Positions 5,917-64,000 of a stretch of 64,000 nucleotides of DNA are shown in pieces. The translations under genes were made by a program, and so were the position numbers. Under the pieces are notes generated by a model, which was given only the letters and a program-made list of their open reading frames with translations, searched no databases and was not told where the DNA came from. The stretch's first letter is position 1, and each line of letters begins with the position of its first letter. This DNA comes from a virus (lineage: Duplodnaviria > Heunggongvirae > Uroviricota > Caudoviricetes), in IMG/VR virus record IMGVR_UViG_3300045988_147321; one strand, given 5' to 3'.

Positions 5917-6581
5917 ATTAGTGTAATATCGCCCCAATGAATCGTGATTTATAGAGCGATTTAGCTGTTAGCCGCGACAGGCGCGGCGGTAAGCATGGCT
6001 GGGCCTAGTCCTCCCAGACAAACCACCGAGTTGCCAGGTTGACCATGCGCCTAAGTGGCAACGCCGAAGTGCGTTACGAGCTTCCAGTTTGCCCATCTTC
6101 GGGTGGGCGTTTTTTCAGGGTTTTCGTCATGGTTAGCGACTTTGCGGCGGTTTAGAAACTGACCATTAAAGTAAATGCAAACGATGATCTGATGATGGTA
6201 GCGGCCTAAGAAACCAGATGCCACGGGGTATGAGTCGTCCCCCGTCAAAAAAATCGACCGCAGAGTGTCCCCGTCTGTGTATTAGGGAACGGGGAGGCAC
6301 AACAGGTAAGGGCGCTGGTGTGATTAACCAGATGAACGAGAAGGGGCCATCTGTTGGTCAGCGTCCTTTCCTGTTGCGTTTTCTTTTCAGCGTAACAGCG
6401 GTGCTTAACAGCACTTTGGGTACAGTTCCACGAATTTACGGGTATATCCCGTCATGCTGAAGGCGCTAATCACGCTGGAAGCCAGGGTTGTGCATCCCCT
6501 GTTACCGAATTGCAGCCAGGGCGCGGTGCGCCGAAAAGCATACGGAGGTGGAAGCCCTCGCCGGAGACGTACCCGGCAAGT

Positions 6582-6738: not shown

Positions 6739-7540
6739 CAACAGGTAAGGGTATTTTGCGACGTCGGAGATCGCCGAGCTTGGCAGAGGGTTCGAATCCC
6801 TACGAAGTACCCTTACCGTTGTGATGAATGCGCAGGCTGATGCGCGAAAGACATTGCAGCTATTGCGGAAAAGAGCTGTTCGGCGGGGCAATTAAACGCC
6901 CGTGAGAGTCTGAAATAACCGCAAGCCGGAGATCAGCACCGGTCATCACAACACAACAGGTAAGGGCATTCTCCCTTATGGGGCTTGGCTTAAATGCATC
7001 GAGTGCTCTTACCGTTGTGATGAAGTGCAGCTCTTTGAAGCAACCAGAAGATAAGCATCTGGCTTCACAACATAAACCGCAGGAACGACCAATAAACGGT
7101 AGTCCGTATGGAGAACACCCCGTTGAGGAAGAGGCCTGGCCGGAACCGTAACCGGCACTACAACGTTGAGAACACTGGCGTAACGGGGTCATATCCCAAT
7201 CTACGAATAAATGTTGCGTTGCAGCGTGACAACCAGTGTTCTCAACATTGTGGTGAATGCACAGGCTGATGTGCCGCAACTACAGTAGTGCGCGCTTTGC
7301 GGGGCTTGCTACAACCCTGTGTCGGAGTTCAGCACCGACCATCACAGTTTGATTCTCTGGCATGAGCATAACGCTGAAATAAGTCCAGTCTGGTGCGGCC
7401 CGATCACTCGCCGTTAGCTCCACGAAACGGAGCACGTAACAGGTAAGAGCATTCTCCTGTAACGGGTTCATATCCCAATCTACAGGTCCACCAGGAATGC
7501 TCTTTCCGTTGCGGTGAATGCGGCTAAGCGCACGCGGGGA
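6739..7540 (+). repeat. Four degenerate copies of a roughly 100-nt hairpin element in an ORF-poor region downstream of the tRNAs
   Basis: Shared modules: AACAGGTAAG(G/A)GCATTCTCC arm, CCGTTG(T/C)G(A/G)TGAATGC tail, GTAACGGGG(T)TCATATCCCAATCTAC loop; long perfect stems; copy 1 contains a tRNA T-arm-like GAGGGTTCGAATCCCT. Confidence 0.5.
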
Positions 7541-53053: not shown

Positions 53054-53962
53054 TTGGCAATGGCACGCGTTTTTAACGAACAGAACACCACGAGATATTG
53101 CTTTCGCTGGTGGGAAAACATTCCTAACCCACCTGAAGACGCAATACATCATTTTTTAAGCAGAGAAAAGACTATGACAGCACAAAATACTAAAACCATT
53201 CAATACCGCCTACGTAATGGCCAGAGTGTCGAAGTGACCATCAATAATGATGGAGTACCTGGCGAAAAGGTTTCTATCTCTGATCTGGCTATCGAAAAAA
53301 CCATCATGTGCCACCTTGGCTTTACTGAAGAAGTGAGCAAAAAGCATGGTGTAGCAATCTGGAGCGCAATGGATACTGGTATGCGCAAATTCATTACTGC
53401 TCGTACCCCAGGGATGACCATGATGGACCTCATGCAGATTGCGCCGCTGTTTGAATGTGAGCCTTTAGATGTATTCAGCAATCCAGCTATCTGCCAGCAG
53501 TTATATGGTGAGATGAAACTCGCGGTTACCCCCATTGTGCTGCATGAAGGATCGCTTGCTGGCGTGTGGAAAGTAGAGCGTATTTCAAGCTACATGCCTT
53601 TCCATGTCAACGGCGTAATCACTGGTGAAAATCAACCTGTTTCCGTTATAAAGTCAGACCTCAAGCGCGCAATTCTTGAAGCAAGTTGTCGAGTTGTCGG
53701 CCTGGGCAAACAGTCTTATGTTTCCTTCCCGGCTGGCCCTGAAGGCCCGGCAGAAATTCTGATTATGGATGCCGATCTGCTATGGCAAATACAGTTTCTG
53801 ATTGGCAAAAGCATCATCCGCGCTGAAGAACTCGATCAGTACATTACCTGCACGATGACGGATGAAGTCAAAAGTGTGGCTATAGCCAATGCCCGGAACC
53901 TATGTCGTGCTGCATTAACAGAACTGCAAGAAAACACCACGGAAGAGGTGGAAAGTGATTAA
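53054..53962 (+). CDS. Hypothetical protein coupled to the terminase-like paralog
   Basis: 302-aa ORF (possibly from MTAQNTK at about 53173); its stop overlaps the GTG start of the next gene. Confidence 0.4.
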   Translation: MAMARVFNEQNTTRYCFRWWENIPNPPEDAIHHFLSREKTMTAQNTKTIQYRLRNGQSVEVTINNDGVPGEKVSISDLAIEKTIMCHLGFTEEVSKKHGVAIWSAMDTGMRKFITARTPGMTMMDLMQIAPLFECEPLDVFSNPAICQQLYGEMKLAVTPIVLHEGSLAGVWKVERISSYMPFHVNGVITGENQPVSVIKSDLKRAILEASCRVVGLGKQSYVSFPAGPEGPAEILIMDADLLWQIQFLIGKSIIRAEELDQYITCTMTDEVKSVAIANARNLCRAALTELQENTTEEVESD

Positions 53963-55049
53963 TCGTATACAGAATGAATCTGCCTGGTTAGCACTGATAG
54001 AACGGTATAAAGACAATTGGGAACTGGCAGCAAAAGAGTTGCTTGATATTGAGTTAACACCTCATCAAGCAAAAATTATTAACGCGATAAAGAACACCGG
54101 AGCCAAAATCACTGCCACCACACCACATGGTATTGGGGAAACCTCTATTGTGGCAGTGATTAGCATCCTGCAAACAATACTGTATTCGTGTTCCCGTACA
54201 GTGGTTGTTTCTCCTGCGATTAACGATTGTCGAAAAACAATAATTGACTATATGTTCCGTTATTGGGAGCGAGTTACCCAAAAACACCCTTTTCTTGGCA
54301 ATTATTTCAGAATACACCCTGACAAAGGGTTGGTGCATATCAGTGAAACATGGGGATGCGTCTATATAACCTATTGTCTGAATAACGAAGAGTCTCTGGC
54401 TGGTTTTACTGGACCGCACGATCTTTTCATCGTTATTAACTCGGCGGAAATCAGCGATCGCGCTCATGCAGTGATAACTGGCAATTTAACCAATTATGAC
54501 TCGCGCCTGCTGTTGCTGTCGAAACCATCGGAACGCGAGAAAGGGTACTTTTATGATTCGCATCACCGGTTGGCCCATAGTAAAAACAATCCTGCTGGTT
54601 TTTTCACGGCGATAACTCTAAACACAGAGGATTCACCTCTCGTTTCTGAAGCATATCTTGAATTCAAAGCCAAAGAGTTTGGTGGGCGCAATAGCGATGA
54701 ATATCGCCGATTGATCTTGGGGAAATTCCCCGGGATTCGGGAGTTGATGGAAAAGTCATCTGTTCCCCGTAATATGCACTTCACAATGACTGACGGTAGT
54801 AAATGGGTAGTGCCTACGATCGTGATCGCCAAACACCATGCGAAACATCACGCTCAAAAACACAACTCCAGCACATTAGACTGGCTGAAGGCCTATACAA
54901 TACCGTTATTCTCGGCAAACCATAACGCTATAACTGAATGGGCTAAACAAATCCCCTGGCAGGATGTGGCTGAAGAGGCATTTGTCGAAAAACCACCAAG
55001 AGATATGCACGAGCACTGTTGGCTGACATCAGAAAAGAGTTTCTCGTGA
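53955..55049 (+). CDS. Terminase-large-subunit-like paralog with degenerate ATPase motifs and no nuclease domain
   Basis: 364 aa; aligns with the PacB N-terminal domain, but Walker A reads PHGIGETS (Lys to Glu) and Walker B reads VINSAE (Asp-Glu lost). Confidence 0.6.
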   Translation: MINRIQNESAWLALIERYKDNWELAAKELLDIELTPHQAKIINAIKNTGAKITATTPHGIGETSIVAVISILQTILYSCSRTVVVSPAINDCRKTIIDYMFRYWERVTQKHPFLGNYFRIHPDKGLVHISETWGCVYITYCLNNEESLAGFTGPHDLFIVINSAEISDRAHAVITGNLTNYDSRLLLLSKPSEREKGYFYDSHHRLAHSKNNPAGFFTAITLNTEDSPLVSEAYLEFKAKEFGGRNSDEYRRLILGKFPGIRELMEKSSVPRNMHFTMTDGSKWVVPTIVIAKHHAKHHAQKHNSSTLDWLKAYTIPLFSANHNAITEWAKQIPWQDVAEEAFVEKPPRDMHEHCWLTSEKSFS

Positions 55050-62485: not shown

Positions 62486-62671
62486 ATGCTAATAGGCTAT
62501 GTACGCATATAGACAAATGAACAAAACACAGCTATGCAGTGAAAAGCACTTGAAAGCGCAGGATGTGAGCTAATTTTTGCGAATAAGGCGAGCAGCAAAA
62601 AAGCTGGGCACCCTGGGTTAAAAAAGGTTCTGCGTATGCTTTCCAGAGGTGATACCCTAGTCTCGGACTAG
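62486..62671 (+). pseudogene. Remnant of a serine DNA invertase gene (Cin/Hin/Gin family), disrupted by in-frame stops and truncated
   Basis: Reads MLIGYVRI*TNEQNTAMQ*KALESAGCELIFANKASSKKAGHPGLKKVLRMLSRGDTLV against Cin MQIGYIRVSTNDQNTDLQRNALNCAGCELIFEDK...; TAG replaces the catalytic Ser codon, TGA replaces an Arg codon. Confidence 0.6.
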
Positions 62672-62793: not shown

Positions 62794-63366
62794 TTACAGC
62801 TCAGATTGAGTTTGGCGCTTCTCTACAGGATGATAACGATAAATCGTCGATACACCGATATCGTAAATAATTGCCAACTGTTTCCTGCTGTAGCCATTTT
62901 CGATCAACCTCGCTATTTGCTCATGTTGTTCTTTTGTCAACTTCGGGCGACGTCCGCCAATGCGTCCCTGTTCGCGTGCAGCTGCCAGTCCGGCCAGTGT
63001 TCTCTCAACAATTAATTCACGTTCCATTTCTGCTAAAGCACCCATGACATGAAAAAAGAAACGCCCCATGGGTGTTGATGTGTCAATACTGTCTGTCAGA
63101 CTACGGAAATTAACACCTTTTTCCCGCAACTCCTCTATAAGCGTGATAAGGTGTTTCATACTTCTGCCAAGCCTATCCAGCTTCCAGACAACCAGCGTAT
63201 CTCCTTCTGATAACGTTCTGAGCAGCTTTTTCAAGCCTGGTCTGGCTGACTTTGTTCCGCTTATTTTATCTTCAAAAATCAGTTCACATCCTGCGCAGTT
63301 CAGTGCATTTCTTTGTAAATCTGTGTTTTGGTCATTTGTTGACACACGAATGTAGCCAATTTGCAT
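62794..63366 (-). CDS. cin: Serine DNA invertase
   Basis: 190 aa from MQIGYIRVSTNDQ; catalytic Ser and C-terminal HTH; adjacent to tail-fibre cassettes. Confidence 0.85.
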   Translation of the reverse strand: MQIGYIRVSTNDQNTDLQRNALNCAGCELIFEDKISGTKSARPGLKKLLRTLSEGDTLVVWKLDRLGRSMKHLITLIEELREKGVNFRSLTDSIDTSTPMGRFFFHVMGALAEMERELIVERTLAGLAAAREQGRIGGRRPKLTKEQHEQIARLIENGYSRKQLAIIYDIGVSTIYRYHPVEKRQTQSEL

Positions 63367-63415
63367 GAAAAACAACCTCTTTGTTTAGTTAAAAATACAT
63401 CGTTGGTATAGGTAG

Positions 63416-63441
63416 GGATTAAGACTAAAACGTTGGTTTGG
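63416..63441. other. Candidate invertase crossover (cix-like) site
   Basis: AAGACTAAAACGTTGGTTTGGGGGAA with a core AAACC-N-GGTTT-like dyad (as its reverse complement); lies at the start of the variable cassette. Confidence 0.4.
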
Positions 63442-63899
63442 GGGAAGGCTCAGCATTGCCTGTTGGCGTACCTGTTCCGTGGCCCTCAGCCACTCCGCCA
63501 ACGGGGTGGCTGAAATGTAACGGAGCAGCATTTTCTTCTGAAAAGTACCCAAATCTGGCAAAGGCTTACCCTACTAATAAATTGCCGGATTTACGCGGTG
63601 AATTTATTCGTGGCTGGGATGACGGACGTGGTGTGGATGCCGGGCGACAATTATTATCTTCACAGGGGGATGCAATAAGAAATATTGAGGGGTTCGCAGA
63701 TGGCGGGATTGGCATGTCTTTTGATGCAATCAGAGGGGCTTTTTATGATGCAGGAACACGATCTGCGAGAATGCCGAATAACACAACTGATATAGGCAAA
63801 ACCGATGACCTTGGATTCGACGCCTCTCGTGTCGTGCCAACAGCTAATGAAAACCGTCCTCGTAATATTGCCTTTAATTATATCGTAAGGGCGGCATAA
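63438..63899 (+). CDS. Tail-fibre C-terminal variable cassette (promoterless alternative 3' exon)
   Basis: 153-aa ORF starting right at the crossover site, GEGSALPVGVPVPWP...; Gly-rich receptor-binding-like sequence. Confidence 0.5.
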   Translation: MGEGSALPVGVPVPWPSATPPTGWLKCNGAAFSSEKYPNLAKAYPTNKLPDLRGEFIRGWDDGRGVDAGRQLLSSQGDAIRNIEGFADGGIGMSFDAIRGAFYDAGTRSARMPNNTTDIGKTDDLGFDASRVVPTANENRPRNIAFNYIVRAA

Positions 63900-63921
63900 A
63901 AACGTTGGTTTGGGGGAAGGC
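63896..63921. other. Second cix-like crossover site
   Basis: GGCATAAAAACGTTGGTTTGGGGGAA; near-identical to the site at 63416. Confidence 0.4.
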
Positions 63922-64000
63922 TCTGCACTGCCTGTTGGTGTGCCCGTTCCGTGGCCCTTAGAAACACCACCAACGGGCTGGCTAAAATGCAATGGTGCAG
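63922..64000 (+). CDS. Start of a second tail-fibre variable cassette (runs off the window)
   Basis: Encodes GEGSALPVGVPVPWPLETPPTGWLKCNGA, about 85% identical in DNA to the start of the first cassette. Confidence 0.4.

What the first reader, a model, noticed from the sequence alone, without database searches (positions are those of the whole stretch)
63376..64000. Tandem tail-fibre C-terminal cassettes, each preceded by a cix-like site
Two near-identical sites containing AAAACGTTGGTTTGGGGGAA (63416 and 63896) each sit immediately before a promoterless ORF beginning GEGSALPVGVPVPWP. Several alternative 3' ends for the tail-fibre gene, switched by Cin, resembles the multiple-inversion arrangement of plasmid p15B more than the simple two-state P1 C segment. 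The two sites seen here are in the same orientation, which is not what a simple inversion needs, so more sites should lie beyond the window.
Basis: partly seen in the sequence, partly recalled or inferred. Interest (0 to 1): 0.4.

Follow-up and report, generated by a model that had tools for sequence, protein, structure and literature searches.

The report
p15B-type Min tail-fibre shuffling region
The window ends inside a known kind of phage DNA-shuffling switch (the Min multiple-inversion system first described on plasmid p15B), here with nine interchangeable tail-fibre tips, and the paper describing this very plasmid had already noted it, so it is real but ordinary.

Summary
The 20-mer lies at 63427 and 63899. 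Each copy is part of a 26-bp invertase crossover site that opens a start-less Collar-domain cassette beginning GLGEGSALPVGVPVPWP.

The window is 100% identical to K. pneumoniae phage-plasmid pMCR_SCKP-LL83 (MF510496). That makes nine sites and nine intact cassettes, with one tail-fibre assembly gene. The last site is fused in frame to the constant part of the P1-type tail-fibre gene.

Next to the array lie an intact serine invertase (74% identical to P1 Cin) and a truncated second invertase gene.

A sister plasmid, p160070-MCR, carries the same nine cassettes four inversions away. Its exchange points map to a 7-nt interval that includes the TT core. Other relatives show further orders, including the predicted fusion to the window's second cassette.

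This is a p15B-type Min system. It has nine sites against the six I recall for p15B, which allows 80,640 possible arrangements. Zhou et al. 2018 already reported the region as 99% identical to p15B min. Novelty is low.

The parts
62486..62663 (+). Truncated second invertase gene. It is a cin-like 5' fragment, comparable to the psi-win gene of p15B. It reads MLIGYVRI*, with a stop where the catalytic Ser codon should be.
   Evidence: About 89% identical to the 5' region of P1 cin. The P1 record notes the same homology to p15B nt 7147-7408. The in-frame stop is visible in the sequence.
62504..62575 (+). Copy of the recombinational enhancer inside the pseudogene.
   Evidence: 62 of 72 positions identical to the annotated P1 cin enhancer.
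62794..63366 (-). Intact serine DNA invertase gene of Min type, 190 aa, starting MQIGYIRVSTNDQ.
   Evidence: Pfam Resolvase (E 2e-51) plus HTH_7 (E 3e-15). 74% identical to P1 Cin. The exact sequence equals UniRef Q05517_ECOLX 'DNA-invertase' and was seen on at least 1000 contigs.
63277..63348 (-). Enhancer-homologous region inside the 5' end of the invertase gene; presumed to bind Fis.
   Evidence: 58 of 72 positions identical to the annotated P1 cin enhancer. Fis binding was not tested.
63421..63446 (+). Crossover site 1: AAGACTAAAACG-TT-GGTTTGGGGGAA. This is the outermost site, next to the invertase gene.
   Evidence: The outer half-site stays in place while the cassette behind it changes between plasmids: B in L001, J in L007, F in L009, H in L010.
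63435..63899 (+). Cassette B: silent alternative tail-fibre C-terminus, 154 aa, Collar domain. Its stop codon lies inside the next site.
   Evidence: Pfam Collar, E 3e-15. PDB sequence matches to a phage short tail fibre (9cuy, E 2e-31) and to T4 gp37 (E 7e-16) and gp12. Found fused to the constant tail-fibre part in p160070-MCR.
63893..63918 (+). Crossover site 2: GGCATAAAAACG-TT-GGTTTGGGGGAA.
63907..64000 (+). Start of cassette C. It continues past the window to the equivalent of position 64368 and is followed there by the only tail-fibre assembly gene.
   Evidence: The predicted constant-part::C-tfa fusion exists as one 962-nt match at 99.9% identity in pD72-mcr1 and pLAO54.

Best explanation
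The window ends inside a p15B-type Min multiple-inversion region of a P1-like phage-plasmid.

Anatomy. A small serine invertase (window 62794-63366, minus strand) acts on 26-bp sites. Each site has 12-bp half-sites around a TT core.
- There are nine sites. Two lie in the window in one orientation. Seven lie just beyond it in the other orientation.
- The inner half-site, GGTTTRGGGGAA, encodes G-L-G-E and opens a start-less cassette of 143-168 aa with a Collar domain.
- The outer half-site of the seven internal sites contains the stop codon of the preceding cassette.
- The last site is fused in frame to the constant 5' part of the tail-fibre gene S. That gene is transcribed with R from the conserved P1 late promoter LPs.

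Mechanism. Inversion between any two oppositely oriented sites flips the DNA between them. This brings a different cassette behind the constant part and reorders the rest.
- The array consists of seven single-cassette segments and one double segment (D-tfa-C).
- This allows 80,640 arrangements and nine alternative receptor-binding tips.
- In the deposited sequence cassette J is expressed. The window's two cassettes, B and C, are silent spares.

What is shown: the anatomy, the in-frame fusions, natural isomers, and exchange mapped to the site core.

What is inferred: that this invertase is the catalyst, that it depends on Fis and the enhancer, and that different tips change host range.
For: Source and array:
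- The window is 100% identical to MF510496. The continuation was fetched as L001.
- Nine sites and nine intact reading frames were mapped.
- Domains: Collar in the cassettes, Caudo_TAP in tfa, Phage_fiber_2 repeats plus Collar in the fused gene, Resolvase plus HTH_7 in the invertase.

Natural isomers:
- p160070-MCR (L007) has the same length, flanks 99.3-99.5% identical and the same nine cassettes, but B is fused to the constant part and J lies next to the invertase.
- In both reciprocal junctions the upstream flank changes exactly at the core, while the 90 nt downstream stay cassette-specific. This confines the exchange to TTGGTTT.
- Four other relatives show further orders that obey the same structural rule.
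- The predicted constant-part::C-tfa junction exists at 99.9% identity.

Model: all 80,640 states are reachable. The window's arrangement is four inversions from L007. The same model with six sites gives 240, the number I recall being published for p15B.

Cis elements and literature:
- An enhancer homologue lies in the invertase 5' end.
- The LPs late promoter is conserved.
- Near-identical sites (GAGAGATAAACGTT GGTTTGGGGGAA) were shown by PacBio reads to invert in an E. coli EC958 prophage (PMC4134206).
- Zhou et al. 2018 report the region as 92% coverage and 99% identity to p15B min (PMC5786510).
Against: - No read-level data exist from this isolate, so ongoing inversion in this particular plasmid is inferred from comparison between plasmids.
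- The p15B sequence (X62121) was not available for direct alignment.
- Over longer evolutionary distances the conserved 5' parts of the cassettes are mosaic. Homologous recombination or gene conversion therefore also acts on the array.
- Only one of the nine cassettes has a tail-fibre assembly gene, and in this arrangement that gene points away from the late operon. How or whether the other eight tips fold without it is unexplained.
Confidence: 0.93

Rival explanations
1. The array is a frozen relic. The cassettes arose by tandem duplication and no longer invert in this plasmid, so the tail fibre is effectively fixed as the constant part fused to J.
For: Three of the five full-length arrays examined carry J at the expressed position: L001, L003 and L004; L007 carries B and L005 carries L. 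There are no population data for this isolate.
Against: All nine cassettes and all nine sites are intact. The invertase is intact and identical to a protein seen on at least 1000 contigs. A sister plasmid of identical length differs by inversions at the site cores.
Confidence: 0.04
2. The rearrangements come from RecA-type homologous recombination between the roughly 200-bp conserved cassette heads. The 26-bp motifs are conserved only because they encode GLGEG and the preceding C-terminus.
For: Cassette heads are 85% or more identical over at least 100 nt. They show mosaic polymorphism patterns between distant plasmids. One relative, pLAO54, has lost most cassettes, as a deletion between direct repeats would produce.
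Against: Between L001 and L007 both reciprocal junctions fall within 7 nt at the core. They do not fall anywhere in the following 90 nt, where B and J differ at about ten positions. An adjacent invertase with an enhancer homologue is present. The sites match the published invertase consensus, and near-identical sites invert experimentally.
Confidence: 0.03
3. This is a simple two-state P1-type Cin/C-segment switch, and the second site in the window is incidental.
For: The backbone is P1-like, and a cin-like fragment lies nearby.
Against: There are nine sites, not two. The cassettes are Collar-domain units of about 150 aa, not Sv/U pairs. The cin homologue is a pseudogene.
Confidence: 0.01

Closest known systems
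Min multiple DNA inversion system of plasmid p15B, E. coli 15T- (Sandmeier et al. 1990, 1991, 1992; Iida et al. 1990)
   Same: - P1-related backbone.
- Serine invertase next to a cluster of crossover sites in both orientations.
- Variable 3' cassettes fused to a constant 5' tail-fibre part.
- A truncated second invertase gene beside the active one.
- Region reported as 99% identical over 92% coverage to p15B min (PMC5786510).
- The P1 record's cross-references to p15B place the same flanking elements in the same order.
   Different: - Nine sites and cassettes in about 4.9 kb, against six sites in about 3.5 kb in p15B. The p15B figures are from my own recollection of the abstracts, because the papers are not in the held library.
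- This gives 80,640 possible arrangements against 240.
- The constant part is shorter here: the fused protein is 493 aa, against the 739-762 aa I recall for p15B.
Cin / C-segment of phage P1, and Gin / G-segment of phage Mu
   Same: - Same recombinase family; 74% identical to Cin.
- Same 26-bp site architecture.
- Enhancer inside the 5' end of the invertase gene.
- Same logic of swapping tail-fibre C-termini.
   Different: - P1 and Mu have two sites, one invertible segment and two states.
- Each of their alternatives has its own chaperone gene (U or U').
- Their variable parts are about 500 aa and are not Collar-domain cassettes.
Invertible Collar-domain tail-fibre alleles of E. coli EC958 prophage Phi2 (PMC4134206)
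   Same: - Nearly the same crossover sites (…AAACGTT GGTTTGGGGGAA and …TTACCTT GGTTTAGGAGAA).
- Phage_fibre_2 repeats in the constant part and a Collar domain in the variable part.
- Inversion shown by long reads.
   Different: Two sites and two alleles only, on a chromosomal prophage.
Shufflon of IncI plasmids (R64; Rci recombinase, pilV)
   Same: Works alike: multiple inversions among many sites shuffle alternative C-terminal cassettes behind a constant 5' part.
   Different: It uses the tyrosine recombinase Rci and asymmetric sfx sites, and its target is a pilus adhesin. It is not related by sequence.

Membership tests
Hin/Gin/Cin/Pin/Min (Din) serine DNA invertase systems | Small serine recombinase with an N-terminal resolvase catalytic domain, including the catalytic Ser, and a C-terminal HTH | tested here: met
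   PF00239 E 2e-51 and PF02796 E 3e-15. 74% identical to P1 Cin, with the YIRVSTNDQ motif aligned.
Hin/Gin/Cin/Pin/Min (Din) serine DNA invertase systems | 26-bp crossover sites: two 12-bp half-sites around a 2-bp core | tested here: met
   Nine sites of the form N12-TT-GGTTTRGGGGAA. They agree with the consensus and the EC958 sites tabulated in PMC4134206.
Hin/Gin/Cin/Pin/Min (Din) serine DNA invertase systems | Recombinational enhancer (Fis-bound) within the 5' part of the invertase gene | tested here: inconclusive
   A homologous 72-bp stretch (58/72 identical to the annotated P1 enhancer) lies at 63277-63348. Fis binding and enhancer activity cannot be tested with these tools.
Hin/Gin/Cin/Pin/Min (Din) serine DNA invertase systems | Exchange at the core dinucleotide, between inverted sites only | tested here: met
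   L001 against L007: the reciprocal junctions map to TTGGTTT. All arrays examined have the form (+ cassettes, double segment, - cassettes) that inversion-only exchange predicts.
p15B-type Min multiple-inversion region | More than two crossover sites, in both orientations, forming overlapping invertible segments | tested here: met
   Two sites in one orientation and seven in the other.
p15B-type Min multiple-inversion region | Sequence identity of the invertase and region to p15B (X62121) | not testable with these tools
   X62121 is not in the available collections. Indirect evidence: the literature gives 99% identity over 92% coverage (PMC5786510), and the invertase equals UniRef Q05517_ECOLX, whose origin I could not verify.
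p15B-type Min multiple-inversion region | Truncated second invertase gene (psi-win) beside the active invertase, between it and the lyd genes | tested here: met
   Pseudogene at 62486-62663. The P1 record maps the homologous cin 5' region to p15B nt 7147-7408 and the min enhancer to nt 6463-6533.
p15B-type Min multiple-inversion region | Six sites and 240 isomers, as in the p15B prototype | tested here: not met
   Nine sites and 80,640 reachable states. This is a difference in copy number, not in kind.
P1 Cin / C-segment | Two cix sites around one segment carrying Sv-U and Sv'-U' | tested here: not met
IncI shufflon | Tyrosine recombinase Rci with sfx sites | tested here: not met
   The recombinase here belongs to the serine family.

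The most novel reading that the evidence does not exclude
The nine-cassette array is an expanded Min region. It has about three receptor-binding tips absent from the p15B prototype and 336 times as many possible arrangements. It has a single assembly gene linked to only one cassette, so eight of the nine tips would fold without a co-oriented chaperone. It may be the standard tail-fibre locus of the P1-like phage-plasmids that now carry mcr-1 and CTX-M genes, which would give these resistance vectors an unusually wide programmable host range.
Probability: 0.5. Interest if true: 0.3.

Novelty: already known. Interest (0 to 1): 0.15.

Why it matters
The switch sets which bacteria the phage-plasmid particles can adsorb to, and this element carries the colistin-resistance gene mcr-1. 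Nine interchangeable tips could widen the range of strains and genera it can reach. The mechanism itself has been textbook material since about 1990 and was already noted for this plasmid. The practical lessons are about annotation and assembly. The 'hypothetical protein' and 'phage tail protein' fragments in such records are silent cassettes. Assemblies of these plasmids capture one isomer out of many.

Tried and rejected
- Original p15B papers. I tried to read PMC329034, PMC206102 and PMC53420, the P1 genome paper (PMC523184) and Johnson's 2015 review (PMC4384473). None is held. The p15B figures (six sites, 3.5 kb, 240 isomers, 739-762 aa, psi-win) therefore rest on my recollection. They are supported indirectly by the P1 record's cross-references and by the six-site model giving exactly 240. 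A text search for '240 isomeric' found nothing relevant.
- Is cassette B frozen next to the invertase? It sat there in the first five loci, and a synthetic constant-part::B query gave no single-piece match. I rejected the idea. The first search was biased because its query contained B, and the top hit (p160070-MCR) does carry the fusion when read directly.
- Could B or C be expressed on their own? I found no ATG and no promoter-like site upstream.
- An apparently missing cassette in L003 turned out to be cassette F behind a site with a 1-nt deletion in its G run.

Full report
**Observation**

The 20-mer AAAACGTTGGTTTGGGGGAA occurs exactly twice in the window, at 63427 and 63899, both on the + strand. 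Chance would give 0.02 matches.

Each copy is the 3' part of a 26-bp unit:
- AAGACTAAAACG-TT-GGTTTGGGGGAA at 63421-63446
- GGCATAAAAACG-TT-GGTTTGGGGGAA at 63893-63918

Each unit is followed in frame by GLGEGSALPVGVPVPWP. The first reading frame is 154 aa and stops at 63899, so its TAA lies inside the second site. The second frame runs off the window. There is no ATG, and no promoter-like match upstream beyond chance.

**Surroundings in the window**

Immediately upstream, on the minus strand, lies an intact 190-aa serine recombinase gene (62794-63366).
- It has Resolvase and HTH_7 domains.
- It is 74% identical to P1 Cin.
- It is identical to UniRef Q05517_ECOLX 'DNA-invertase', a sequence seen on at least 1000 contigs.
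- Its 5' end holds a 72-bp stretch that is 58/72 identical to the annotated P1 cin enhancer.

Further upstream, at 62486-62663 on the + strand, lies a cin-like 5' fragment.
- It is about 89% identical to P1 cin.
- A stop codon replaces the catalytic Ser codon.
- It carries a second enhancer copy, 62/72 identical.

Beyond that come lydA/B, darA and ddrA, which are typical of a P1-type backbone.

**Beyond the window**

The window is 100% identical to K. pneumoniae plasmid pMCR_SCKP-LL83 (MF510496, 97,393 bp). I fetched the continuation as L001. An L001 position equals the window position minus 50399.

The motif occurs eight times there, and a ninth site is fused to the constant part of the tail-fibre gene. 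Two sites are on the + strand (the two in the window) and seven are on the minus strand. The minus-strand sites start at L001 15100, 15587, 16101, 16540, 17018, 17532 and 17971.

All nine sites open intact reading frames of 143-168 aa. Each frame has three parts:
- a conserved head of about 70 aa (Pfam Collar)
- a hypervariable middle
- a conserved tail, RPRNIAFNYIVRAA

Cassette B matches a phage short tail fibre (9cuy, E 2e-31) and the collar regions of T4 gp37 and gp12.

The ninth site, TTCTTGATTACC-TT-GGTTTAGGGGAA, joins the constant part to cassette J, giving a 493-aa protein with Phage_fiber_2 repeats (L001 17526-19007, minus strand). This gene follows R and the P1 late promoter LPs, whose sequence is conserved.

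The array holds one tail-fibre assembly gene (Caudo_TAP). It follows cassette C and lies tail to tail with cassette D.

Read from the invertase, the order is: >B >C tfa> <D <E <F <G <H <I <J::constant part.

**Evidence that the array shuffles**

Relatives carry the same cassette types in other orders.

The clearest case is p160070-MCR (NZ_MG288678). It is also from K. pneumoniae and also 97,393 bp, and its flanks are 99.3-99.5% identical to ours. Read from the constant part towards the invertase, it has constant::B, I and D pointing forward, then tfa, C, H, E, F, G and J in the opposite orientation, with J next to the invertase.
- B and J have swapped ends.
- In both junctions the upstream flank changes exactly at the core.
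- The 90 nt downstream stay identical for each cassette, although B and J differ there at about ten positions. This confines the exchange to TTGGTTT.
- Outer half-sites stay in place and inner half-sites travel with their cassette, as exchange at the central dinucleotide predicts.

The predicted constant::C-tfa junction, built in silico, exists as a single 962-nt match at 99.9% identity in pD72-mcr1 and pLAO54.

**Model**

Treat the array as seven single-cassette segments plus one double segment (D-tfa-C). Allow only inversions between oppositely oriented sites. A breadth-first search then gives:
- 80,640 arrangements, all of them reachable
- four inversions between the window's arrangement and p160070-MCR
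- 240 arrangements for the same model with six sites, which is the number I recall being published for p15B

Every array examined has the form this model predicts: forward cassettes, then the double segment, then reversed cassettes.

**Comparison with what is known**

This is the Min multiple-inversion system of the P1-related plasmid p15B. The literature describes Min as a serine invertase that produces multiple inversions and so variable tail-fibre types (PMC6109161).

The paper on this very plasmid states that its 5-kb putative invertible segment has 92% coverage and 99% identity to p15B min (PMC5786510). The P1 GenBank record cross-references place the min enhancer, the cin-like fragment and lydA in p15B in the same order as here.

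Near-identical sites in an E. coli EC958 prophage were shown to invert by long reads (PMC4134206).

The differences from the prototype are quantitative:
- nine sites against six
- about 4.9 kb against about 3.5 kb
- a shorter constant part

It is not a P1 C-segment, which has two sites and Sv/U pairs. It is not a shufflon in the strict sense, because the recombinase is of the serine rather than the tyrosine family.

**Rival explanations**

- Homologous recombination between the conserved cassette heads would scatter junctions across the heads. The observed junctions lie at the core. However, the mosaic heads in more distant plasmids show that gene conversion also acts on the array.
- A frozen relic is unlikely, because all parts are intact and the sister plasmid is a different isomer.
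- A two-state Cin switch is excluded by the number of sites.

**Limits**

- There are no read-level data from this isolate.
- X62121 could not be aligned directly.
- Fis and enhancer function, and the host-range effect of each tip, are inferred from the family.
- It is unexplained how eight tips manage with a single assembly gene that points away from the late operon in this arrangement.

**Verdict**

The feature is a known system that had already been reported for this plasmid. Interest is low.

Noticed in passing
window 62486-62663 (+): A truncated cin-like invertase pseudogene has a stop codon exactly where the catalytic Ser codon should be. It keeps a well-conserved copy of the enhancer (62/72 identical to P1). 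The locus therefore carries two enhancer-like elements about 700 bp apart.
   Followed up: partly
L008 8558-11353 (pD72-mcr1); L010 11349-13742 (S. Typhi ph681355): Resistance modules sit inside the Min array in relatives: ISApl1-mcr-1 directly after tfa in pD72-mcr1, and ISEcp1-blaCTX-M-15 between cassettes in a Salmonella Typhi plasmid. The array seems to tolerate or attract insertions. Such an insertion would be carried along by any inversion that spans it.
   Followed up: no
L001 13969-14580 (equivalent to window 64368-64979, outside the window): There is only one tail-fibre assembly gene for nine cassettes. It is always linked to cassette C. In the deposited arrangement it points away from the late tail-fibre operon.
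   Followed up: no
L003 4803-5316 (p64EVA-6): Cassette F is present, but its site reads GGTTTAGGG-AAGG, with one G missing. This would frameshift the cassette and alter the inner half-site. It could be a homopolymer sequencing error or a genuinely disabled cassette.
   Followed up: partly
L004, L005 and L010 cassette heads (first ~90 nt after each site): Between more distant plasmids, the conserved 5' part of a given cassette type carries polymorphism patterns that belong to other cassettes. This points to gene conversion or homologous exchange among cassette heads in addition to site-specific inversion.
   Followed up: partly
L009 7287-9407 (pLAO54): This relative has a reduced array of only three cassettes (constant::C-tfa, D, F) next to the same invertase. 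The loss probably came from a deletion between directly repeated units.
   Followed up: no
L001 17526-19007, compared with L003 8834-11215, L005 13478-15205 and L009 5651-7762: The length of the fused tail-fibre gene varies widely among close relatives: 493, 793, 575 and 703 aa. The cassettes differ by only about 25 aa, so most of the variation must lie in the constant part, probably in the number of Phage_fiber_2 repeats; I did not count the repeats in the relatives.
   Followed up: no
L010 14437-15574: In the S. Typhi plasmid the cassette lying tail to tail with tfa is type I rather than D. The composition of the double segment is therefore not fixed across lineages.
   Followed up: no
window about 53223-54335 (-) (L001 2824-3936): A porin gene annotated ompD sits in the phage-plasmid backbone between ssb and hxr.
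   Followed up: no
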